Assembly: GCA_016931255.1 (NCBI GenBank)
Contig: JAFGFG010000005.1
Coordinates: forward strand, 7,053 to 71,052
Reading direction: 5' to 3'
From: Candidatus Aenigmatarchaeota archaeon
GTDB taxonomy: Archaea > Aenigmatarchaeota > Aenigmatarchaeia > QMZP01 > JAFGSV01
Length of the DNA stretch: 64,000 bases
The translations under genes were made by a program, and so were the position numbers. Every line of letters starts with the position of its first letter. Position 1 is the first letter of the stretch. The notes beneath the pieces are model-generated. The model saw only the letters and a list, made by a program, of their open reading frames with translations. It searched no databases and was not told where the DNA came from. Of this stretch, positions 4,333-64,000 are shown one piece after another.

Positions 4333-5019
4333 TCACTTCCCGAACTTTCTCTGCTGCTCTTTATACCATTCCAGAATGTTCTCGAAATCCTTTTTTGTGA
4401 ATTCAGGCCACATCTTCTCTGAGAAATATATTTCAGCATAACTGGACTGATAGAGCATGAAATTGCTCAGCCTGTGCTGGTTTCCGGTCCTTATGATGAG
4501 GTCAAGAGGCCTCTTGACGTAGAGCGCCCTGTCAAGCTTGCTGGCAGGCTTTCTGAGCGTTTCCTTGAGAGCCTGGTTCATCTCGAGCTTTGAGCCGTAT
4601 GCGAGCATTATGTTCAGCACAATGCGCGAATAGCTCTTGGTCGAGTCGTAAAGCTCCTTGACAATCTGCTTTATGTTGGGCTTCCATGTACCCCTCTCGC
4701 CAACGACCCTCACCTTCATCCTCTTGTTGACAACCCTCGGGTCCTTGAGAAGCTTCTTCAGCTCAGCGCCGTACACCTCCCAGAGGGCGTCCACTTCCTC
4801 CTTGGGCCTTTTCAGGTTCTCAGTTGAAAGCGCGAAAATGGAGACCATCTCTATCTCAGGATGCTCGTCGCACCATTCGATGAATTCTTCAATTCTCTTG
4901 GCGCCTTCCACATGCCCCTGTATGGGATTGAGTTTCCTGTCAAGTGCATATCTCCTGTTGCCGTCAGGAATGAGTCCTATATGGATGCCTTTTGCGACCT
5001 TCTTACTCATCGTAATCAC
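4333..5019 (-). CDS. uppS: cis-prenyltransferase (undecaprenyl/dolichyl diphosphate synthase, UppS family)
   Basis: IPDGNRRYA near the N-terminus plus RTGNQHRLSNFMLYQSSYAEIYF match the UPP synthase family. Size is 228 aa. Confidence 0.85.
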   Translation of the reverse strand: MITMSKKVAKGIHIGLIPDGNRRYALDRKLNPIQGHVEGAKRIEEFIEWCDEHPEIEMVSIFALSTENLKRPKEEVDALWEVYGAELKKLLKDPRVVNKRMKVRVVGERGTWKPNIKQIVKELYDSTKSYSRIVLNIMLAYGSKLEMNQALKETLRKPASKLDRALYVKRPLDLIIRTGNQHRLSNFMLYQSSYAEIYFSEKMWPEFTKKDFENILEWYKEQQRKFGK

Positions 5020-44152: not shown

Positions 44153-44224
44153 GCCTCGGTGGCTCAACGGTAGAGCGGCGGTTTTGTAAACCGCAGGTTG
44201 GGGGTTCGATTCCCTCCCGAGGCT
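44153..44224 (+). tRNA. tRNA-Thr (anticodon TGT)
   Basis: Cloverleaf by hand. Acceptor GCCTCGG/CCGAGGC. D arm GCTC-AACGGTA-GAGC. Anticodon arm GCGGT-TTTGTAA-ACCGC (U33, anticodon TGT, A37). T arm GGGGG-TTCGATT-CCCTC. Discriminator T. No encoded CCA. Confidence 0.8.
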
Positions 44225-44307
44225 TGACTTCGCCTTTGATACTTTTTTTGATAATGTTTTACGTCCACATGATAATATTTATAAATAATGTGCCCGTATA
44301 ATAAACT

Positions 44308-44766
44308 ATGACATATACAGAAGTAAAGGAGAGGAATGGAAAGAGGTATTACTATAGGGTTAGAAGTATAAGAAACGGCGATAAGTTCCGAAAGGAGCGG
44401 ATATATATGGGAATTGGCCTGTCTGGGAGCGAGTTGTCTGAAAAGGAAGTGCTCGCAGATAAGAAATTGATGAAAGATAAAATAGAGATCGGCCTGAAGT
44501 CGATAAAACCGAAGATAGTCAGTGTACTTAAGAAAAACAACATCAAAAGGGCTGGAATATTCGGAAGCTATGCTCGGGGAGAACAGAAAAAGAACAGTGA
44601 CGTTGACATCTTAATTAGACCCCCAAAGAATACTGGCTTCGGGTTTGCGGGAATTGAGCTTGAACTCGAGAAGAAACTCAAGAAAAATGTAGATTTGGTA
44701 AGCTACAATGGTATAAGTCCTTACACGAAAGATCGGATTTTGCAGGAGGAAGTCAGAATATTATGA
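44308..44766 (+). CDS. minimal nucleotidyltransferase (MNT) antitoxin-type protein
   Basis: GIFGSYARGEQKKNSDVDILI nucleotidyltransferase motif. Overlaps downstream hepT by 4 nt. Confidence 0.8.
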   Translation: MTYTEVKERNGKRYYYRVRSIRNGDKFRKERIYMGIGLSGSELSEKEVLADKKLMKDKIEIGLKSIKPKIVSVLKKNNIKRAGIFGSYARGEQKKNSDVDILIRPPKNTGFGFAGIELELEKKLKKNVDLVSYNGISPYTKDRILQEEVRIL

Positions 44767-45113
44767 ATGGAAAAAATGACATTGTTTACATCAAGCACGT
44801 CATGGACAGCATAGGTGCCATAAACGATTTTTCAAGGGGGATTAGCAAGAGGGAACTAAAGACCAACAGAATGAAGCGTAGTGCGATAGTGAGGGAAATA
44901 GAGATAATAGGGGAAGCTGTCAAGAACGTTTCGAGTGCTACTAAGAACAGATACCGCCATATACGATGGAAAGAGATTGCCGGAACCAGAGACAAAATGA
45001 TACATCACTATTTCGGTGTCGATTTGGACATTGTCATGTCAATCGTAACAAATGATATCCCCATTCTGGAAAAGGAAATGCTTAAGATACTGAAAGATAT
45101 GGAAAAGTATTAA
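44763..45113 (+). CDS. HepT-like HEPN toxin (DUF86)
   Basis: RDKMIHHYFGVD matches the HepT Rx4HxY motif. 116 aa. Confidence 0.8.
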   Translation: MNGKNDIVYIKHVMDSIGAINDFSRGISKRELKTNRMKRSAIVREIEIIGEAVKNVSSATKNRYRHIRWKEIAGTRDKMIHHYFGVDLDIVMSIVTNDIPILEKEMLKILKDMEKY

Positions 45114-45175
45114 GGAAATATTTTAAGGACTGCAAGCTAAATACCTACTGTAAGAATTGAGATTATTGTCAACTC

Positions 45176-45188
45176 CCTCCCGAGGCTT
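45176..45188 (+). repeat. direct repeat of tRNA-Thr 3' end (att-like copy 1)
   Basis: tccctcccgaggcttg: 16 of 16 identical to tRNA positions 44210-44225. Confidence 0.7.
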
Positions 45189-45221
45189 GTCACTTCTATA
45201 CAATCCCGATTGATATCATTT

Positions 45222-46133
45222 TCAAGCAGACTTTAAATATTTTTTCTTTATGTAATTTATGAAAGGACGTTCTTTTTTCTCTATCTGGTATTTGTCCAGT
45301 ACATCGTAGTATTTTTCAATGTCTTCTATAGGTATATCTATTGGCGGGTATCCCTTCTTCCATAGTATCCAGTTCATGAGCAGTCTTGAAAGTCTTGAGT
45401 TGCCGTCGATAAATGGCTGCATCGATATGATTTTAATGTGGATTAGTGATGCAAGTTCAATTGGATGCAGTTTCCTGTTCTCGGACTTATACCACTTGAA
45501 GAATCTGTCGATTTCCTTTGATAACTCATTCCATTTGGGTGGGACGTAAGATGTTCCTGCTATCTTGACATTCCTTTTCAGTTCAGATCTCAACTTTCCT
45601 GCTATTGAATCGTCAACGCCTGAAAGCAGTAGTTTATGAAGATTTTTGATGAATCTTATGTTGAGAACACCTTTGTATTTGGTTATAGCGATAATTCCTT
45701 TTTCATGATTTTCAAGCTCCCTTGCTGTTTTGAGACTCTTGAAATCTTTAGGAATGAAACCCTCCCTAAGAATCAGCGAAGTTTGCCTCAGCGTTACATC
45801 AACACCCGAAAGCTTGCTACTGTCGTAAGTGAACCTTATTATGAACTCTTGGAACTTGTTATTCTTTTCAGTCGAGCTCATCTTCTTTAGCTCGCTCTCG
45901 TATTGCTCCCTTTTCGCTTCTATCTTCTTGACATCTTCGCCTGAAAGAAAAGCGTGCTTTCTCCCATCCAGATTTGCCAGGAACTCTTTTTTGATATATT
46001 CTAGTCTGTCTTTTGGTGGCAGTGTTTTCCCTATGTATTTCTTCTTCTGTAATACCTTCTTTCCAACTCTTACCGAATGTATCAGTATCCAATAATCATT
46101 CCCGTTGACCTTAATCTTCTTTGCAGTTACCAT
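45222..46133 (-). CDS. Fic/DOC-family protein
   Basis: Fic motif HPFIDGNSRLSRLL (HPFx[DE]GN[GS]R). 303 aa. Confidence 0.75.
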   Translation of the reverse strand: MVTAKKIKVNGNDYWILIHSVRVGKKVLQKKKYIGKTLPPKDRLEYIKKEFLANLDGRKHAFLSGEDVKKIEAKREQYESELKKMSSTEKNNKFQEFIIRFTYDSSKLSGVDVTLRQTSLILREGFIPKDFKSLKTARELENHEKGIIAITKYKGVLNIRFIKNLHKLLLSGVDDSIAGKLRSELKRNVKIAGTSYVPPKWNELSKEIDRFFKWYKSENRKLHPIELASLIHIKIISMQPFIDGNSRLSRLLMNWILWKKGYPPIDIPIEDIEKYYDVLDKYQIEKKERPFINYIKKKYLKSA

Positions 46134-46241
46134 GAATAATTTATGTACTACATATATTTATAAGTTTATCTTATGTACTACATGATTAAAATAAACCATT
46201 CGCCACTTTTTGTCCCGCTCCCCGGCGATTATCTATCCGGC

Positions 46242-46254
46242 CCTCCCGAGGCTT
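46242..46254 (+). repeat. direct repeat of tRNA-Thr 3' end (att-like copy 2)
   Basis: gccctcccgaggctt. 14-nt match to the tRNA 3' end. Confidence 0.65.
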
Positions 46255-46292
46255 CGTAAGTTCTCTTGATACATTTTTTTTTGTTAATTGAA

Positions 46293-46697
46293 TTATTTAT
46301 CTAGTTCCTTTATGATATTCCTGCATTTTTTTATTGCATCCTTTGCTATATCAAAATCCATTCTACTCCCATAATAAGTAAGGGAATTTCTTTTGAATCT
46401 CATGTCGTCAAATATCATATATAGGTCTTTTCTTTTGAGTGCGTCTCTCAAATAAAATCCCAGACATATATGATTCAGTATATTATATCCATCCTTGAAG
46501 GACATTGACTGCAGCAGTTCAATTAAAGACGTGTAATAATCTTCAAAGACGAAGTTGCAGTTCTTTTCATTTACTTCTCTGATCAGGTCTACTCTTTCTT
46601 TTGCTGTTTCTATTAGCGATTCTGCCCTTTTTACATCCGGAGACACACGTCTTGCTGTCATGTCATCCAGGCAGTCGTTCCAGCTTTTTTCCTTCAC
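46293..46697 (-). CDS. HEPN-domain protein (toxin-type)
   Basis: 134-aa all-helical pattern with an RFKRNSLTYYG Rx4-6H-like region. Abuts the MNT gene stop-to-start. Confidence 0.6.
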   Translation of the reverse strand: MKEKSWNDCLDDMTARRVSPDVKRAESLIETAKERVDLIREVNEKNCNFVFEDYYTSLIELLQSMSFKDGYNILNHICLGFYLRDALKRKDLYMIFDDMRFKRNSLTYYGSRMDFDIAKDAIKKCRNIIKELDK

Positions 46698-47225
46698 TTA
46701 GAAGACCTCCATATAATTGTTCATTGTTATGCCGTTTATTATGTTATTTGCCAGATTTGGGTTCGTAATTTCTCTGATGTTCTTATGCTGAAATATCTGA
46801 ATGTCCCGCTTAAGAACATTTTCAAACTTTTCAAGAGTTACACGCTTCTTTGTCGGTGTTTCTATATACAAATCTATATCGCCGCTTTCAATGTCTTCTC
46901 CCTTTGAATATGAACCGAAAACAACTATTGTGGGGTTGCTAAGTTCCCTTTTTAGATACTCTAAAAGTCCTGAGGTATACAATTGCTTTATGTTGTAAAG
47001 CTTCTTTTCCAAAATGAATTTTTCGCTTCTGCTTGCAGTGTAGAAAACAACACTTCCTGTTTTGACAGATGTCAGGACATCTTCCCTTTCAAGATCCCTG
47101 CAATACCTTATAACCGACGGCAGTGGAAGCTTTAGCGTTCTCTCAATCTCTCTCACTCTAAGCTTGGCAGTCGTGTTAACAAAGAAGTATTCGGTAATTA
47201 CTTGTTTGATATTTTTCTGTATCAT
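46698..47225 (-). CDS. wHTH-nucleotidyltransferase (MNT) protein
   Basis: VVFGSYSKGEDIESGDIDLYIE nucleotidyltransferase motif. N-terminal winged-helix-like region. Confidence 0.75.
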   Translation of the reverse strand: MIQKNIKQVITEYFFVNTTAKLRVREIERTLKLPLPSVIRYCRDLEREDVLTSVKTGSVVFYTASRSEKFILEKKLYNIKQLYTSGLLEYLKRELSNPTIVVFGSYSKGEDIESGDIDLYIETPTKKRVTLEKFENVLKRDIQIFQHKNIREITNPNLANNIINGITMNNYMEVF

Positions 47226-47278
47226 GTGATAATATATTATATCAACTGATATTTAAAGATATCGATACTTTTTATCGG

Positions 47279-47731
47279 TTACGAATCATGGCTTTTGATG
47301 TATTTTGCGTATTCCTGGTCTATACCTTTTATGTGCTGAACAAGCCAGTCTAACAGGTATTTCTTGATTTTTTCCATTAGTTTTTCAATTTCAAGTGAAG
47401 AGAAATTGCCTGAAGTCATATCTTCTTTAAGTTCCGTCTGGAAGTCCTTGTAGAACTGGATGAAATTTGCGTGTATTTTTTTATGGCCTTCGAGACCTGG
47501 AAAATCATTCTTCTCCATGTATTCCTCTTCGTAAGCAAAATGTTCTTTGATATATGTGTACAGGAAATGGCCGGTTTCTCTTAGAGACCCCATATCAACA
47601 TTTAATGATGACAGGATGTCAATCAGCTTGTTTATCTGGCCAATCAGTTTCTTGTGCTGCGTGTCAATCGTTTCCTCACCAACCGACATGGAAGAATTCC
47701 ATGCAACCTTTTTTTCGTATCCCATAATCAT
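47279..47731 (-). CDS. hemerythrin-like metal-binding protein
   Basis: IDTQHKKL, YIKEHFAYEEEYM and HKKIHANF are spaced like the hemerythrin HHE cation-binding motifs. 150 aa. Confidence 0.6.
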   Translation of the reverse strand: MIMGYEKKVAWNSSMSVGEETIDTQHKKLIGQINKLIDILSSLNVDMGSLRETGHFLYTYIKEHFAYEEEYMEKNDFPGLEGHKKIHANFIQFYKDFQTELKEDMTSGNFSSLEIEKLMEKIKKYLLDWLVQHIKGIDQEYAKYIKSHDS

Positions 47732-47796
47732 TATTTGTCCATTGTTTCTTAAACAATCGCTGCCTTTTACTCTTTCCCCATGATACCATGCCCGGG

Positions 47797-47809
47797 CCTC
47801 CCGAGGCTT
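47797..47809 (+). repeat. direct repeat of tRNA-Thr 3' end (att-like copy 3)
   Basis: cctcccgaggctt. 13-nt match. Confidence 0.65.
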
Positions 47810-47879
47810 TTGTGACTTATTCTCATCAATGAGTAAAATGGAAAAAACTTTTTAATCAAAAAAATAAAAATATATTAAT

Positions 47880-48425
47880 ATGAAACCTCTTAGGAAAGAT
47901 TCAGGTTCAGCTATAGAACGCAGGAAGGCGGGGAATACGCTTAAATCATCCGAAGTGCGGTACCGCAGGCTGTTCGAGGCAGCGCAGGACGGGATTATCC
48001 TCCTGGATTTTGATACAGGAATTATTCTCGATGTCAATAAGTTTCTGATTGACATGCTTGGCTATTCCAAAGAGGAATTCCTGAATAAGCACATCTGGGA
48101 AATCGGTGTTTTCGAGAATGTCAACACATCAAAGAAATACTTCCGGGAGCTGCAGAAGAAGGATTATATCCGTTACGAAGACATGCCGCTTGAGACCAAG
48201 GAAGGAAAAAAGATTTTTGTTGAGTTCATCAGCAATTCCTACTTCGAAAACGGCAAGAAGACAATCCAGTGCAACATACGCGACATAACAGACCGCAAGC
48301 GTGAAGAAATGGAGTCGCTGAAAGATAGAAATGAAGAGCTTGAAAAATTCACCAACTTTTCCGTTGGCAGGGAACTGAAGATGACTGAACTGAAAAAGAA
48401 GATAGCAGAACTGGAAAAGAAGTAA
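47880..48425 (+). CDS. PAS-domain protein with C-terminal coiled coil
   Basis: YRRLFEAAQDGIILLD...ILDVNKFLIDMLGYSKEEFLNKHIWEI is a typical PAS core. 181 aa. Confidence 0.55.
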   Translation: MKPLRKDSGSAIERRKAGNTLKSSEVRYRRLFEAAQDGIILLDFDTGIILDVNKFLIDMLGYSKEEFLNKHIWEIGVFENVNTSKKYFRELQKKDYIRYEDMPLETKEGKKIFVEFISNSYFENGKKTIQCNIRDITDRKREEMESLKDRNEELEKFTNFSVGRELKMTELKKKIAELEKK

Positions 48426-61539: not shown

Positions 61540-61691
61540 GCCTCGGTGGCTCAGTGGTTAGAGCGCCGCACATCCCTAATAAGGATTGGGTGAAGCTCAT
61601 AAGCGTGTCTTATGAGCGATGAGAAAACGTTTGTTTTCAATGACATAGCTGAGATACGCGGAGGCCGTGGGTTCAAATCCCGCCCGAGGCA
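61540..61691 (+). tRNA. tRNA gene with ~79-nt insertion (intron candidate); anticodon unresolved
   Basis: 5' GCCTCGG-TG-GCTC-AGTGGTTA-GAGC-G-CCGCA. 3' CGCGG-AGGCC-GTGGG-TTCAAAT-CCCGC-CCGAGGC-A. Normal acceptor, D and T arms. Same acceptor stem as the tRNA-Thr at 44153. The insert contains a 9-bp hairpin GCTCATAAG/CTTATGAGC and box C/D-like GATGAG ... CTGA motifs. Confidence 0.55.
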
Positions 61692-61780
61692 TGAGCGCAA
61701 TAGGAATTAAGGTCTATGGAGTCAGATACGGGCTTTGTAGAAGATAAGAAGGCAGGAAGACGGGGAGTTACTAATGCTGC

Positions 61781-61921
61781 CTATTTTCCAAGGAAATTCC
61801 TGATTTGCTCCCTTAACCATTCAGCCTTTGAATTATAACCAGAAGCTTTGAGTTTTGCCTCGAAAGCTTCATGAATGTCCTTTTCAATTTGGGCTTTGAT
61901 TTCAAGTTCGATTTTAGGCAT
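61781..61921 (-). CDS. ribbon-helix-helix (CopG/antitoxin-like) small protein, 46 aa, not in ORF track
   Basis: Hand translation gives MPKIELEIKAQIEKDIHEAFEAKLKASGYNSKAEWLREQIRNFLGK. This is an RHH beta-strand plus two-helix pattern. Divergent from the downstream MNT. Confidence 0.4.
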   Translation of the reverse strand: MPKIELEIKAQIEKDIHEAFEAKLKASGYNSKAEWLREQIRNFLGK

Positions 61922-61974
61922 AATATCACCTCCTTAAACGATAGGTTTAAATAGTTGATTAATCAACTATATAG

Positions 61975-62589
61975 TTGAAGAAACAACAGTTGGTTAAAAT
62001 GCTTAATGAAACTGAATTAAAAATATTGTATGCCTTCTTTCCAGAGGGTACAGAAAGGACTACAAAAGAAATAGAAGACCGCTCAAGTTATTCCCATGAA
62101 CGTGCTTATTCCACACTCAAAATATTAGAAAAAAAAGGCATTTTGTTAAAAAAGAAGGTAGGAAAGGCACTTGTTTATTCAATTAAAAAATTTGATGACT
62201 CTGTTTATCTTGCGTTTACTTACTACTCATTAAATAAGAAAAATACTTTTGCAAAGAAATATTCCTCTGCTTGGAAAGCTATTGATGAATTTATCAACAA
62301 AACAAAACTGGAAATGGTTATATTGTTTGGCAGTTATTCAAAAGGAGAAGTAAAGGAAAGAAGCGATGTTGATGTTTTATGCATCAATGGAAACTCAGAA
62401 GCTGAAAAAATTGCTTTGTCTTTAAGACATAAATATAATTTGAAAATAGCTCCTGTTATTGTGGATAAAGAAGATTTCAGAAACATTAAGTCAGAGAATC
62501 CTGAACTGTGGGAAGAACTTATCAAATTCGGAATTATTCTTAAAGGGCAGGAATTATTTTATGATTTAGTTTATAGGTGGGATAAATGA
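61975..62589 (+). CDS. wHTH-nucleotidyltransferase (MNT) protein
   Basis: VILFGSYSKGEVKERSDVDVL motif. N-terminal wHTH. Overlaps the downstream HEPN gene by 4 nt. Confidence 0.75.
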   Translation: MKKQQLVKMLNETELKILYAFFPEGTERTTKEIEDRSSYSHERAYSTLKILEKKGILLKKKVGKALVYSIKKFDDSVYLAFTYYSLNKKNTFAKKYSSAWKAIDEFINKTKLEMVILFGSYSKGEVKERSDVDVLCINGNSEAEKIALSLRHKYNLKIAPVIVDKEDFRNIKSENPELWEELIKFGIILKGQELFYDLVYRWDK

Positions 62590-63122
62590 AGAAAGATTTT
62601 AATTGGTTCATTCAGGAAGGCTTGCTTTCAAAAACTCAATTCATACAGAGATTAGCACCAAGATTTATCGAAAAAGCAAAGAATAATCTCATAACACTGA
62701 GCATTCTGTTTGATCTTCACAATAACAAAGATGTAAGGGACTCTTTGAATGTCCCCGAGGATTATGATTCAAGCGAATGGGTTGTAGTTTGTGCATATTA
62801 TGCAATGTATATGGCAGCATCAGCAGCTCTTGCCAAAATTAGCTATAAGAGCAAAAATCATACTGCAACTGTTCTGGCTCTGGAAACATTCTTTGTGAAG
62901 AAACAGCTATTGGAAGAGAGTTATCTGAAGATGATTGAAAAAGCGCAACTGGAAAAACAATACATTGACAACCTGAATCTTGCAAGAGACAGAAGAGAAA
63001 TTGCTCAATACAGCGTCACAAAAGAAACGACGAGAAGGATTGCTGAGGAAATCAAGAAAGATGCTTACAAGTTTGTGGAAAGGATGGAGAAGTTAATTGA
63101 AAACTTAGACCCGAGGGATTGA
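62586..63122 (+). CDS. HEPN-like domain protein partnered with MNT
   Basis: 178 aa, all-helical, in the canonical MNT-HEPN operon position. The Rx4-6H motif is not obvious (RDRREIAQY). Confidence 0.55.
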   Translation: MKKDFNWFIQEGLLSKTQFIQRLAPRFIEKAKNNLITLSILFDLHNNKDVRDSLNVPEDYDSSEWVVVCAYYAMYMAASAALAKISYKSKNHTATVLALETFFVKKQLLEESYLKMIEKAQLEKQYIDNLNLARDRREIAQYSVTKETTRRIAEEIKKDAYKFVERMEKLIENLDPRD

Positions 63123-63124
63123 TT

Positions 63125-64000
63125 ATGGGTTTACCTAGTGCTCAAATGGTAGGAGGAAATCTTCAGGATGAAAAATTTACAAACATGTACAGCTTGTCAA
63201 AGACACTAAGATTTGAATTGAAGCCTATTGGGAAGACTCTCGAACATATCGAAAAAAAGAAATTGATACGCCAGGATGAAAAAAGAGCAGAAAGCTACAA
63301 GAAAATGAAGAGAACCATTGATGGCTTCCACAGGGATTTCATCGAACTTGCGATGTCACAGGTAAAATTAACAAAACTAAAAGCATTTGCCAAACTGTAC
63401 AATGAATCTTCAGAACGTAAAAAAGAAGATGACTTCAAGAAGAAATTCGAGAAAGTGCAGGCTGATCTGAGAAAAGAGATCGCCGAAGGGTTTAAGACTG
63501 GTAAAGCAAAGGAAACATTCTCAAAGATTGACAAAAAGGAATTGATAACTGAGCTCCTGCCAAATTGGATAAGAACACAGGAAGGACAAAATAAAAATAT
63601 TTACTTCGATGATAAGTTCAAAAGATTCACAACATACTTCGGAGGCTTCCATGAGAATCGGAAAAACATATACACTGACAAAGAACAATCCACAGCTATT
63701 GCCTATCGATTGATACATGAAAATTTACCAAGATTCCTGGATAACATCAAGACCTTTGAAAAGATTAGATTAATACCTGAATTATATAAGGAATGCGCCA
63801 TCCTGTACGAAGAAATAAAAGAATATCTTGAGATCACACGTATCAACGATGCTTTTAAGGTGGATTATTACAATAAAGTGCTCACTCAAAAACAGATGGA
63901 TGTTTACAATCTGATTATTGGTGGACGCACTCCTAAAGAAGGGCAAAAGAAGATTCAGGGACTGAATGAACAGATCAACCTGTACAACCAAAAACAGAAC
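63125..64000 (+). CDS. cas12a: Cas12a (Cpf1) type V-A CRISPR effector, N-terminal 291 aa only; gene continues beyond window
   Basis: Hand translation from 63125 is open to the window end: [74 protein letters not shown] ... [39 protein letters not shown] ... [29 protein letters not shown]. This is colinear with FnCas12a [22 protein letters not shown]...[24 protein letters not shown]...[16 protein letters not shown]...IYRIVDDNLPKFLEN...FNTIIGG...GINEYINLYSQ. Start is 2 nt after the HEPN stop. Confidence 0.9.
   Translation, partial: [292 protein letters not shown]

What the first reader, a model, noticed from the sequence alone, without database searches (positions are those of the whole stretch)
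63125..64000. Cas12a (Cpf1) effector start at the window edge, apparently co-transcribed with an MNT-HEPN pair
Hand translation from 63125 gives an unmistakable Cas12a N-terminus, with [36 protein letters not shown] and IIGG...[11 protein letters not shown] blocks colinear with Fn/AsCas12a WED/REC1. This ORF is absent from the supplied ORF track because it has no stop in the window. Type V-A effectors are uncommon in archaea. Here the gene sits in an archaeal housekeeping context and starts 2 nt after a co-oriented MNT-HEPN pair (61975-63122), itself just downstream of a tRNA. No CRISPR array or cas1/2/4 lies upstream within 64 kb, so the adaptation genes and the array must lie beyond the window.
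Basis: partly seen in the sequence, partly recalled or inferred. Interest (0 to 1): 0.8.

Follow-up and report, generated by a model that had tools for sequence, protein, structure and literature searches.

The report
Cas12a CRISPR island in DPANN archaeon
The window ends in the start of a genuine, apparently intact Cas12a (Cpf1) CRISPR nuclease gene; it belongs to a low-GC DNA island inserted next to a tRNA gene of an Aenigmarchaeota (DPANN) archaeon, the gene is already annotated in GenBank, and the toxin-antitoxin-like pair in front of it is a separate mobile cassette rather than a regular Cas12a partner.

Summary
Confirmed. Window 63125-64000 encodes the first 292 residues of Cas12a (Pfam REC1, E=1.6e-74). 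A 7.5-kb contig from an independent assembly is 100% identical to window 61543-64000 and extends the locus. It shows a 1289-aa Cas12a with REC1, PI, RuvC and Nuc domains and intact catalytic motifs, then cas4-cas1-cas2, a leader and a first 36-nt repeat ending AATTTCTACTATTGTAGAT. GenBank already calls this protein Cas12a (MBN1896511.1, Candidatus Aenigmarchaeota MAG).

The locus is a ~35% GC island in a ~50% GC host. It starts flush with the 3' end of a native, two-intron tRNA(CAU). Related genomes have the same HerA-like gene and tRNA, and the one with long downstream sequence lacks the island.

The island is a mosaic. The small-ORF/MNT/HEPN cassette occurs at 84-88% DNA identity next to other tRNAs in other archaea without cas12a. 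In one of them it is bounded by 13-nt direct repeats. The cas12a-to-repeat block occurs at 76-85% identity in other archaeal contigs without the cassette. The joint is a unique ~60 nt at the HEPN stop/cas12a start.

Co-transcription is plausible (one TATA box, no terminator) but untested. This is a new member of a known kind.

The parts
61540..61691 (+). Native host tRNA(CAU) (Met or Ile2) with two introns (about 61570-61594 and 61603-61656); insertion site of the island
   Evidence: It has a perfect 7-bp acceptor stem, a D-arm and a T-arm. Its exons are identical to the tRNA that follows the HerA-like ortholog in L025 and L026; L027's contig ends inside the tRNA and matches in the part seen. 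L025 shows the uninterrupted arm CCGCG-CTCATAA-CGCGG. ARAGORN's Leu(gag) call in intron mode is rejected because the arm is mispaired and the variable loop is short.
61692..61780 (.). Conserved non-coding left end of the cassette; GC falls from about 50% to about 35% here
   Evidence: About 80% identical to the sequence directly after different tRNAs in L018 and L020. Composition profile.
61781..61924 (-). 47-aa divergent small ORF, tentatively ribbon-helix-helix
   Evidence: Conserved at DNA level in L018 and L020, and a 46-aa gene is called at the same place in L020. The Pfam RHH_1 match is sub-threshold only (E=0.02, 15.3 bits against a 20.5-bit cut-off).
61925..61998 (.). Divergent promoter/operator region: TATA box TTTAAATA 61946-61953 and 18-bp perfect palindrome TAGTTGATTAATCAACTA 61952-61969
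   Evidence: This is the only perfect archaeal TATA consensus on the + strand of 61693-63260. The palindrome and its flanks are invariant in window, L018 and L020, while the neighbouring coding DNA is 84-88% identical. Function is inferred.
61999..62589 (+). wHTH-MNT nucleotidyltransferase, MntA-like putative antitoxin (GenBank starts it at TTG 61975)
   Evidence: Pfam Polbeta E=1.1e-10, NTP_transf_2 E=8e-8, TrmB wHTH E=3e-4 (sub-threshold). The GSYS...DVD NTase motif is present. Nearest solved structures are MNT/MntA antitoxins 8XEH and 5YEP. PADLOC candidate PDC-M05A, E=7.5e-10.
62586..63122 (+). HEPN protein of the UPF0332/HEPN-T type, putative toxin partner; lacks the canonical Rx4-6H motif
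   Evidence: Pfam HEPN PF05168 E=2.5e-6. Nearest solved structure is 2HSB, AF0298 UPF0332 (E=1.6e-4). The sequence at the motif position reads R-E-I-A-Q-Y.
63110..63173 (.). Recombination joint between the cassette and the cas operon; includes the HEPN stop and the first ~16 cas12a codons
   Evidence: Homology to the cassettes in L018 and L020 ends at 63088-63109. Homology to the cas12a loci L002 and L003 starts at 63169-63174. The stretch between is unique to this locus.
63125..64000 (+). cas12a, first 292 codons (alternative start 63146). The gene continues off-window to the equivalent of position 66994, followed by cas4 (66946-67545), cas1 (67539-68513), cas2 (68510-68782), leader, and the first repeat (69012-69047)
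   Evidence: REC1 E=1.6e-74. L001 is 100% identical over 61543-64000. The full protein carries REC1, cas_Cpf1_2nd, PI-like, RuvC_1 and NUC domains. PADLOC Cas12a score 1663 bits. PDB Cas12a matches have E-values from 0 to about 1e-300.

Best explanation
The window edge carries the 5' end of a complete and apparently functional type V-A CRISPR-Cas locus: cas12a-cas4-cas1-cas2-leader-array. It lies in a horizontally acquired, low-GC genomic island inserted at the 3' end of a native tRNA(CAU) gene of an Aenigmarchaeota (DPANN) archaeon.

By family, Cas12a should process its own pre-crRNA at the UCUAC-UAUU-GUAGA hairpin and cut crRNA-matched DNA with its single RuvC site. Cas4-Cas1-Cas2 should acquire spacers.

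The island is a mosaic of two independently circulating modules. (1) A roughly 1.4-kb cassette made of a small divergent RHH-like ORF, a wHTH-MNT nucleotidyltransferase and a HEPN protein, which is a HepT/MntA-like toxin-antitoxin-type module that lands next to tRNA genes. (2) The cas operon. They are fused at a unique ~60-nt joint that replaced the native cas12a upstream region.

cas12a is therefore most likely transcribed by read-through from the cassette's promoter, which is probably autoregulated. The cassette probably acts as a selfish stabilising module for the island rather than as a dedicated Cas12a accessory.

Shown here: gene identities, completeness, mosaic structure, insertion site and the empty site. 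Inferred: nuclease activity, co-transcription, and toxin-antitoxin or stabilising function.
For: Identity and completeness:
- REC1 at E=1.6e-74.
- L001 is 100% identical to the window and holds a 1289-aa ORF with REC1, PI, RuvC and NUC domains, followed by cas4, cas1 and cas2.
- PADLOC Cas12a score 1663 bits. PDB Cas12a matches run end to end.
- RuvC D895, E988, D1238, Nuc R1201 and RNase H822, K831, K848 motifs are all present.
- The terminal 36 nt equals the repeat of a 27-unit array in L002 and has the canonical 3' hairpin.

Island:
- GC is about 50% before 61.7 kb and 30-39% through the whole 5.9-kb extension.
- The tRNA exons are identical, and the HerA-like gene to tRNA synteny is conserved, in L025-L027. 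Ordinary genes follow the tRNA in L025, and no cassette homolog was found in L025-L104.

Mosaic:
- Window 61666-63109 is 84-88% identical to L018 and L020/L021, which lack cas12a.
- Window 63170 onwards is 85% identical to L002 and 76% to L003, which lack the cassette.
- In L018 the cassette is a 1.8-kb low-GC insert bounded by a perfect 13-nt repeat of the tRNA-Glu 3' end.

Transcription:
- There is a single TATA box upstream of MNT.
- There is no TATA-like site in HEPN and no T5 run between 61990 and 63400.
- The genes are separated by a 4-nt overlap and a 2-nt gap.
Against: - Only one repeat of the array is visible, because L001 stops there. An actual multi-spacer array in this genome is inferred from relatives.
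- The right end of the island, any attR and any integrase are outside the available data.
- The independent assembly L001 begins at tRNA base 4, so the host-to-tRNA join rests on the MAG contig plus conserved synteny.
- The HEPN protein lacks the Rx4-6H RNase motif, so toxin activity is doubtful.
- No expression data exist. An internal promoter not matching the TATA consensus cannot be excluded.
- Three different tRNAs serve as neighbours of the cassette, and no recombinase has been identified.
Confidence: 0.85

Rival explanations
1. The MNT-HEPN pair is a dedicated functional partner of this Cas12a system. It could be an addiction module that protects the CRISPR locus from loss (analogous to CreTA), an abortive-infection backup, or a regulator that couples cas12a expression to toxin-antitoxin autoregulation.
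For: The genes are tightly abutted and co-oriented, with no intervening promoter or terminator signal. The native cas12a upstream region has been displaced. The same cassette is followed after a 1-nt gap by another defence candidate, PDC-S18 (E=8e-104), in L020. Toxin-antitoxin coupling with CRISPR has precedent (PMC12737573).
Against: None of the 16 genome loci with Cas12a relatives has an MNT or HEPN homolog nearby, and the three closest loci do not either. The cassette exists alone as a repeat-bounded 1.8-kb insert in L018. A different MNT-HepT pair heads another tRNA-adjacent low-GC patch in the same window without any cas gene. The HEPN protein lacks the RNase motif.
Confidence: 0.15
2. 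The adjacency of a 35% GC CRISPR locus to a 50% GC archaeal chromosome is an assembly or binning chimera formed at a conserved tRNA gene, and Cas12a belongs to another organism.
For: There is a sharp GC step exactly at a tRNA. The independent Logan contig L001 starts at tRNA base 4, and the host-side Logan contig L024 ends 1.7 kb earlier. One related record, L002, is demonstrably mislabelled.
Against: L001 contains the whole tRNA, including both genome-specific introns, joined to the island at 100% identity to the window. Related genomes have the same tRNA exons after the same HerA-like gene, so the tRNA belongs to the host. Host and island contigs come from the same sequencing run. L018 shows the same cassette embedded with high-GC host DNA on both sides in one contig.
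Confidence: 0.04
3. The locus is a decaying remnant: inactive Cas12a or a lost array.
For: Only a single repeat is seen. The native promoter region is lost. CRISPR-Cas is under-represented in DPANN archaea (PMC12988326).
Against: All four cas ORFs are full length and 80-96% identical in protein to those of L002, and all catalytic motifs are kept. The repeat is identical to that of an active-looking 27-repeat array. A contig that ends in the first repeat is the expected assembly break at a repeat array.
Confidence: 0.05

Closest known systems
Type V-A CRISPR-Cas effectors Cas12a/Cpf1 (FnCas12a, LbCas12a, Lb2Cas12a, AsCas12a; reconstructed ancestor ReChb, PDB 8QWD)
   Same: The alignment runs end to end with E-values from 0 to about 1e-300. 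The domain order is the same (REC1, PI, WED, RuvC, Nuc), as are the catalytic motifs, the cas4-cas1-cas2 module and the 36-nt repeat with the AAUUUCUACU-N-GUAGAU handle.
   Different: The host is a DPANN archaeon. The native 5' region is replaced by a toxin-antitoxin-like cassette. The protein belongs to a small subclade (73-80% identity) of four sequences; three are archaeal by flanking genes, the fourth (L003) by its record label only.
Archaeal Cas12a of Methanomassiliicoccales (Ca. Methanoplasma termitum, Ca. Methanomethylophilus alvus)
   Same: These are class 2 type V-A systems in archaea, documented and used experimentally (PMC7145573; PMC6892893).
   Different: I did not align them directly. 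The host phylum also differs (Aenigmarchaeota).
HepT/MntA (HEPN-MNT) type VII toxin-antitoxin modules; A. fulgidus AF0298 UPF0332 (PDB 2HSB)
   Same: The gene order is MNT then HEPN with overlapping codons. The NTase GS...DxD motif is present. The nearest solved structures are MntA antitoxins and a UPF0332 HEPN protein. MNT sits in the 5' position, as is typical (PMC3710099).
   Different: The MNT carries an N-terminal wHTH. The HEPN protein lacks the Rx4-6H motif and reads R-E-I-A-Q-Y. A divergent RHH-like ORF and an invariant palindromic operator accompany the pair. Toxicity is untested.
tRNA-targeted genomic islands and integrative elements
   Same: The island is flush with a tRNA 3' end, has deviant GC, and an empty site exists in a relative. 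In L018 it is flanked by a direct repeat of the tRNA 3' end.
   Different: No integrase is seen in the available sequence. Cassette copies sit at three different tRNAs (CAU, Glu-UUC, Gly-UCC-like). The right end here is unknown.
CreTA/CreR modules (toxin-antitoxin or regulatory RNAs embedded in CRISPR-cas loci)
   Same: This is the concept of a toxin-antitoxin or regulatory element placed at the cas promoter (PMC12737573).
   Different: No crRNA-like pseudo-repeat exists upstream of cas12a here or in its close relatives. The module here is protein-based and not specific to cas loci.

Membership tests
Type V-A CRISPR-Cas (Cas12a) | Large single effector with the Cas12a-specific REC1, PI and Nuc domains and a RuvC domain; no HNH domain | tested here: met
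   The product hits Pfam REC1, cas_Cpf1_2nd, Cpf1_PI-like, RuvC_1 and NUC. It scores 1663 bits against the PADLOC Cas12a model. The alignment to solved Cas12a structures is full length.
Type V-A CRISPR-Cas (Cas12a) | Intact RuvC catalytic triad (D/E/D) and the conserved Nuc-domain arginine | tested here: met
   GLD895RGER, VVME988DLN, DAD1238ANGAY and QMR1201NS are conserved in alignments to ReChb and Lb2Cas12a. Assigning these residues to catalysis rests on published FnCas12a work, which I recalled rather than tested.
Type V-A CRISPR-Cas (Cas12a) | WED-domain RNase residues for self-processing of pre-crRNA (His/Lys/Lys) | tested here: met
   H822, K831 and K848 lie in the conserved block VVHKANKPIGNKNP...YDIIKDKRY. 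Their role is taken from published FnCas12a H843/K852/K869 work, recalled from memory.
Type V-A CRISPR-Cas (Cas12a) | Adjacent cas4-cas1-cas2 adaptation module | tested here: met
   L001 5404-7240 carries Cas_Cas4, Cas_Cas1 and CRISPR_Cas2. They are 89-96% identical to those of L002.
Type V-A CRISPR-Cas (Cas12a) | 36-nt repeat whose 3' part forms the UCUAC-N4-GUAGA hairpin handle | tested here: met
   L001 ends in GTCTAGAAGCATGCTTTAATTTCTACTATTGTAGAT. The hairpin is predicted by folding. The same repeat occurs 27 times in L002.
Type V-A CRISPR-Cas (Cas12a) | A multi-unit repeat-spacer array in this genome | not testable with these tools
   L001 stops in the first repeat. The 76-kb GenBank contig could not be fetched and the metagenome pattern scan found nothing.
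Type V-A CRISPR-Cas (Cas12a) | crRNA-guided cleavage of dsDNA next to a T-rich PAM, without tracrRNA | not testable with these tools
   This is a biochemical property.
HepT/MntA (HEPN-MNT) toxin-antitoxin | Two-gene dyad with MNT 5' of HEPN, translationally coupled | tested here: met
   MNT lies at 61999-62589 and HEPN at 62586-63122, with an ATGA overlap.
HepT/MntA (HEPN-MNT) toxin-antitoxin | MNT with the catalytic G[GS]x9-13Dx[DE] nucleotidyltransferase motif | tested here: met
   The motif GSYSKGEVKERSDVD aligns to the MNT of PDB 8XEH.
HepT/MntA (HEPN-MNT) toxin-antitoxin | HEPN with the Rx4-6H RNase motif | tested here: not met
   The equivalent position reads RREIAQY, with neither His nor Asp. 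The HEPN-T/PF05168 group is known often to lack the His (PMC3710099). I therefore describe the pair as 'HepT/MntA-like' and do not file it as a proven toxin-antitoxin system.
HepT/MntA (HEPN-MNT) toxin-antitoxin | HEPN toxicity neutralised by MNT-catalysed AMPylation | not testable with these tools
   This needs expression and toxicity assays.
tRNA-integrated genomic island | Located at a tRNA 3' end, with deviant base composition | tested here: met
   The tRNA ends at 61691. GC is 50% before it and 30-39% after it.
tRNA-integrated genomic island | Empty site in related genomes | tested here: met
   L025-L027 have the same HerA-like gene followed by a tRNA with identical exons where sequenced (complete in L025 and L026; L027 ends inside it). 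L025, the only one with long downstream sequence, continues with ordinary genes and has no cassette or cas genes.
tRNA-integrated genomic island | Flanking direct repeats (attL/attR) and an integrase | tested here: inconclusive
   A perfect 13-nt repeat bounds the cassette in L018. In the window the right end is not available, no copy of the tRNA 3' end occurs in the 7.4 kb that can be seen, and no integrase was seen.

The most novel reading that the evidence does not exclude
The small-ORF/wHTH-MNT/HEPN cassette is the tRNA-proximal 'head' of a family of small, integrase-less, tRNA-targeting mobile islands. These islands supply a promoter plus an addiction function and carry interchangeable defence cargo: a whole type V-A CRISPR-Cas locus here, PDC-S18 in L020 and nothing in L018. 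In this way they would act as a vehicle that spreads class 2 CRISPR systems among DPANN and other archaea.
Probability: 0.2. Interest if true: 0.6.

Novelty: new member of a known kind. Interest (0 to 1): 0.4.

Why it matters
Class 2 CRISPR systems were long seen as essentially bacterial. Among complete archaeal genomes, type V-A was recorded only in three Methanomassiliicoccales strains (PMC7145573), and CRISPR-Cas is under-represented in DPANN archaea (PMC12988326).

This locus shows a complete Cas12a system in an Aenigmarchaeota genome. Together with three relatives, it defines a compact Cas12a subclade; three of its four members are archaeal by flanking genes (the fourth by label only). 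The four share an identical crRNA handle. The cas block is 85% identical in DNA between hosts of 50% and 30% GC, which points to recent lateral transfer.

It also gives a clean natural example of a cas operon that has lost its own 5' region and been captured behind a mobile toxin-antitoxin-type cassette. That makes the question of toxin-antitoxin-driven cas expression or stabilisation directly testable.

Practically, it is one more Cas12a ortholog with a standard crRNA scaffold. It does not change what is known about how Cas12a works.

Tried and rejected
1. ARAGORN's tRNA-Leu(gag) call with one 77-nt intron. Rejected because the anticodon stem is mispaired and the variable loop is of class I type. 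Comparison with orthologous tRNAs gives CAU with two introns.
2. A CreR-like crRNA-mimic regulator upstream of cas12a. No handle-like sequence with up to 3 mismatches exists in the window. The best matches upstream of cas12a here and in L002, L003 and L022 have 5-8 mismatches of 19.
3. MNT-HEPN as a conserved Cas12a neighbour. tblastn found none in 16 loci, nor in L022/L023.
4. Fetching the 76-kb GenBank contig through its proteins. They are not on record. An exact leader/repeat pattern in metagenome contigs gave 0 hits. The array and the right end of the island therefore remain unseen.
5. Sigma-70 promoter and intrinsic-terminator scan. The result was not above shuffles, and the scan does not suit archaea.
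6. att-like duplication of the tRNA 3' end in L002, and in the window plus L001. None was found. The L020 repeats are not colinear and are probably chance.
7. Assembly chimera. Considered and judged unlikely.
8. C/D-box-like reading of the tRNA introns. The motif matches are too weak, and I did not pursue it.
9. Structure prediction and fold search were not used, because the sequence evidence for Cas12a is already overwhelming.
Full report
OBSERVATION. Pfam places residues 59-291 in REC1 (PF18501), the Cas12a recognition lobe, at E=1.6e-74. The two co-oriented genes upstream are a nucleotidyltransferase and a HEPN protein (PF05168). The nucleotidyltransferase hits Polbeta/NTP_transf_2 and has a weak N-terminal TrmB-type winged helix. 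These two genes overlap by ATGA. The HEPN stop (63120-63122) lies 2 nt before the first cas12a ATG. The window holds no CRISPR-like tandem array, no copy of the Cas12a repeat handle and no Cas1/2/4 homolog.

EXTENSION BEYOND THE WINDOW. An exact-protein look-up with the HEPN product returned a 7,505-bp contig (L001) from an independent assembly of run SRR13394437. L001 is 100% identical to window 61543-64000. On it, cas12a runs without interruption to 1,289 codons and carries REC1, cas_Cpf1_2nd, PI-like, RuvC_1 and NUC domains. The protein scores 1,663 bits against a PADLOC Cas12a model. It aligns end to end with solved Cas12a structures: ReChb, FnCas12a, LbCas12a and Lb2Cas12a.

The RuvC motifs (D895, E988, D1238), the Nuc arginine (R1201) and the pre-crRNA RNase residues (H822, K831, K848) are all present. 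Their catalytic roles are taken from published FnCas12a work, which I recalled from memory. cas4, cas1 and cas2 follow the effector gene. After a 229-nt leader the contig ends in GTCTAGAAGCATGCTTTAATTTCTACTATTGTAGAT. This 36-mer is identical to the repeat of a 27-unit array in the closest relative, L002, and it folds into the canonical UCUAC-UAUU-GUAGA hairpin.

ALREADY ANNOTATED. The exact proteins are in GenBank. MBN1896511.1 is 'type V CRISPR-associated protein Cas12a/Cpf1 [Candidatus Aenigmarchaeota archaeon]' (1,282 aa, starting at window 63146). MBN1896509.1 is the NTase and MBN1896510.1 is the HEPN protein. All lie on a 76,163-bp MAG contig. I could not fetch that contig's DNA.

HOST. 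The flanking genes are archaeal: a PGF-pre-PGF surface protein, a HerA-like ATPase, ADP- and AMP-forming acetyl-CoA synthetases and IleRS. Every named IleRS relative from 73% down to about 51% identity is labelled Aenigmarchaeota or Aenigmatarchaeota, with one exception labelled Nanoarchaeota. This supports a DPANN host.

AN ISLAND AT A NATIVE tRNA. GC content is about 50% up to 61.7 kb. It then drops to 30-39% and stays there through the whole extension. The drop coincides with the 3' end of a tRNA at 61540-61691. The default ARAGORN run misses this tRNA, and in intron mode ARAGORN miscalls it as Leu(gag).

Orthologs of the upstream HerA-like gene in three metagenome contigs (L025-L027, about 65% identity) are each followed by a tRNA with the same exon sequences as far as sequenced (complete in L025 and L026; L027's contig ends inside the tRNA). 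L025 shows the uninterrupted arm CCGCG-CTCATAA-CGCGG. The window gene is therefore tRNA(CAU) (Met or Ile2) with two introns, of 25 nt after position 30 and 54 nt after position 38. Because the HerA-like gene to tRNA synteny is conserved, the tRNA is native to the host lineage.

In L025 the tRNA is followed by ordinary genes. No cassette homolog was found in L025-L104, and none of the L025 downstream genes I scanned is a cas gene, so L025 is an empty site. The host-side contig L024 comes from the same sequencing run. L001 joins the intron-bearing tRNA to the island. An assembly chimera is therefore unlikely.

A MOSAIC OF TWO MODULES. blastn splits the island into two blocks. Window 61666-63109 covers the tRNA T-arm, a non-coding left end, a 47-aa divergent ORF, MNT and HEPN. 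This block is 88% identical to L020/L021 and 84% identical to L018. Window 63169/63174 onwards covers cas12a from about codon 16, cas4, cas1, cas2, the leader and the repeat. This block is 85% identical to L002 and 76% identical to L003. The ~60 nt in between, which holds the HEPN tail and the first cas12a codons, is unique to this locus.

The cassette-bearing loci have no cas12a. In L020 the cassette lies between the ribosomal-protein/SecY cluster and EF-2, and it is followed after 1 nt by a DUF5655/NucS-like gene that matches the PADLOC defence candidate PDC-S18 (E=8e-104). In L018 it is a 1.8-kb insert of 33-44% GC in a host of 55-68% GC. That insert is bounded by a perfect 13-nt direct repeat of the tRNA-Glu 3' end, which is an attL/attR signature.

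In all three genomes the cassette starts immediately after an intron-bearing tRNA, but the tRNAs differ: CAU, Glu-UUC and Gly-UCC-like. Conversely, none of 16 genome loci with Cas12a relatives has an MNT or HEPN homolog, nor do L002, L003 or L022/L023. The pairing seen here is thus a one-off recombination joint, not a conserved operon.

THE CASSETTE. The MNT has the GSYS...DVD nucleotidyltransferase motif. Its nearest solved structures are MntA-type antitoxins (8XEH, 5YEP). The HEPN protein's nearest solved structure is A. fulgidus AF0298 (UPF0332, 2HSB). At the Rx4-6H position it reads R-E-I-A-Q-Y. The HEPN-T/PF05168 group is known to deviate there (PMC3710099). RNase toxicity is therefore uncertain, and I call the pair HepT/MntA-like.

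The divergent 47-aa ORF has only a sub-threshold RHH_1 match (E=0.02). Between it and MNT lie the only perfect archaeal TATA box of the region (TTTAAATA, 61946-61953) and an 18-bp perfect palindrome (61952-61969). Both are invariant across the three cassette copies, although the coding DNA around them is 84-88% identical. This looks like an autoregulated divergent promoter, but that is an inference.

HOW IT MOST LIKELY WORKS. Cas12a, Cas4-Cas1-Cas2 and the array should operate as a standard type V-A system; this is inferred from family membership. The cas12a gene lost its native upstream region at the joint. No TATA-like site lies in HEPN, no T5 run occurs between 61990 and 63400, and the genes abut. 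I consider this likely (about 0.6), but it is untested.

The cassette itself most plausibly behaves as a selfish stabilising module at the tRNA-proximal end of the island. A second low-GC patch in the same window, directly after tRNA-Thr, also begins with an NTase/HepT-like pair and includes a Fic gene and another NTase. Such modules are common at tRNA-adjacent islands in this genome, so the adjacency to cas12a is not special in itself.

RELATIVES AND LITERATURE. More than 4,000 Cas12a relatives exist at E<=1e-50. The nearest are at 80% (L002), 76% (L022/L023) and 73% (L003). All others are at 69% or below, and where named they are bacterial. These four proteins form one clade in a neighbour-joining tree and share the identical 19-nt handle.

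L002 is titled 'Patescibacteria' but encodes aRF1 and ribosomal protein L15e, so it is archaeal. L022 lies beside archaeal PolD. L003 is labelled Methanosarcinales; its archaeal status rests on that label alone. The subclade therefore appears archaeal: three of four members by gene context.

Among complete archaeal genomes, type V-A was reported only in Methanoplasma termitum and two Methanomethylophilus alvus strains (PMC7145573). Those enzymes have been used experimentally (PMC6892893). CRISPR-Cas is under-represented in DPANN (PMC12988326). The 2025 classification notes class 2 type II-D in DPANN but says nothing on V-A there (PMC12669027). No CreR-like pseudo-repeat is present.

VERDICT. 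The effector is an ordinary Cas12a that GenBank already annotates. The added value is the context: a DPANN host, a small Cas12a subclade in archaeal-context contigs with signs of recent transfer, and capture of the cas operon behind a mobile, tRNA-associated toxin-antitoxin-like cassette. The novelty class is 'new member of a known kind', and interest is moderate (0.4).

Noticed in passing
window 44153-48000: A second low-GC patch (37-39% against about 50%) starts right after tRNA-Thr(tgt) at 44153-44224. It opens with an NTase (44308-44766) overlapping a HepT-like/DUF86 RNase (44763-45113). A Fic/DOC gene (45222-46133, -) and another NTase (46698-47225, -) follow. It looks like another tRNA-adjacent island led by an MNT-HEPN module.
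   Followed up: partly
L002 1202-2290 and 22042-22611 (JAHYJW010000001.1): The record is titled 'Patescibacteria group bacterium isolate KA32', yet the contig encodes aRF1 (eRF1 domains 1-3) and ribosomal protein L15e. Both are archaeal/eukaryotic markers, so the taxonomic label looks wrong. cas12a there begins 123 nt after tRNA-Gly(ccc).
   Followed up: partly
L022 13946-17534 (also L023 6537-10125): Two ORFs (238 aa and 918 aa) lie between cas12a and cas4. They match the N- and C-terminal parts of short PADLOC 'Cas12a' models (E=2e-40 and 2e-193). This is a second, split Cas12a-like gene in the same locus, possibly Cas12a2-like. That suggestion comes from my memory of V-A2 loci and was not tested.
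   Followed up: no
window 61540-61691; L025 12293-12453; L026 about 4490-4810; L027 after 2660: Orthologous tRNA(CAU) genes with identical exons carry different numbers and positions of introns. The window has them in the anticodon stem and after position 38. L025 has them after position 38 and in the T-loop. L026 and L027 have an extra one in the D-loop. Intron turnover is strikingly fast in this lineage, and ARAGORN and Rfam miss or miscall these genes.
   Followed up: partly
L018 4134-4146 and 5962-5974: A perfect 13-nt direct repeat, CCGCCGGGAGCAT (the tRNA-Glu 3' end), brackets a 1.8-kb low-GC insert. The insert holds only the small ORF, MNT, HEPN and a 40-aa ORF, with no integrase. It looks like a non-autonomous integrated mini-element.
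   Followed up: yes
L020 10539-11423 and 12097-14291: The gene abutting HEPN, with a 1-nt gap, is a DUF5655/NucS_C-like protein that matches the defence candidate PDC-S18 (E=8e-104). Just downstream, the EF-2 gene appears split into 112-aa and 615-aa ORFs.
   Followed up: partly
L025 12452-12466 compared with window 61706-61721: In the empty-site genome, the bases directly after the tRNA (TTAGGGTCTATTGA) resemble a motif near the left end of the cassette in the window, L018 and L020 (ATTA[AG]GGTCTATGGAG). This could be an att core or chance. It was not significant by blastn-short.
   Followed up: partly
window 61610-61656; L018 4060-4110; L020 9030-9075: The introns of the three different tRNAs that neighbour the cassette share short motifs: GAAA(A)CG, then a hairpin, then GA(A)GATA just before the 3' exon. 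This remains unexplained.
   Followed up: no
L001 7346-7385 (equivalent to window coordinates 68888-68927): The CRISPR leader contains a tandem 20-nt duplication, AAATAATTATATACTCTGGA / AAATAATTATACACACTGGA.
   Followed up: no
window 63125 compared with 63146; 61975 compared with 61999: Start codons differ between annotations. For cas12a, ATG 63125 gives 1289 aa and has a GAGGG sequence 8 nt upstream, while ATG 63146 gives 1282 aa and is GenBank's choice. For MNT, TTG 61975 gives 204 aa (GenBank) and ATG 61999 gives 196 aa.
   Followed up: partly
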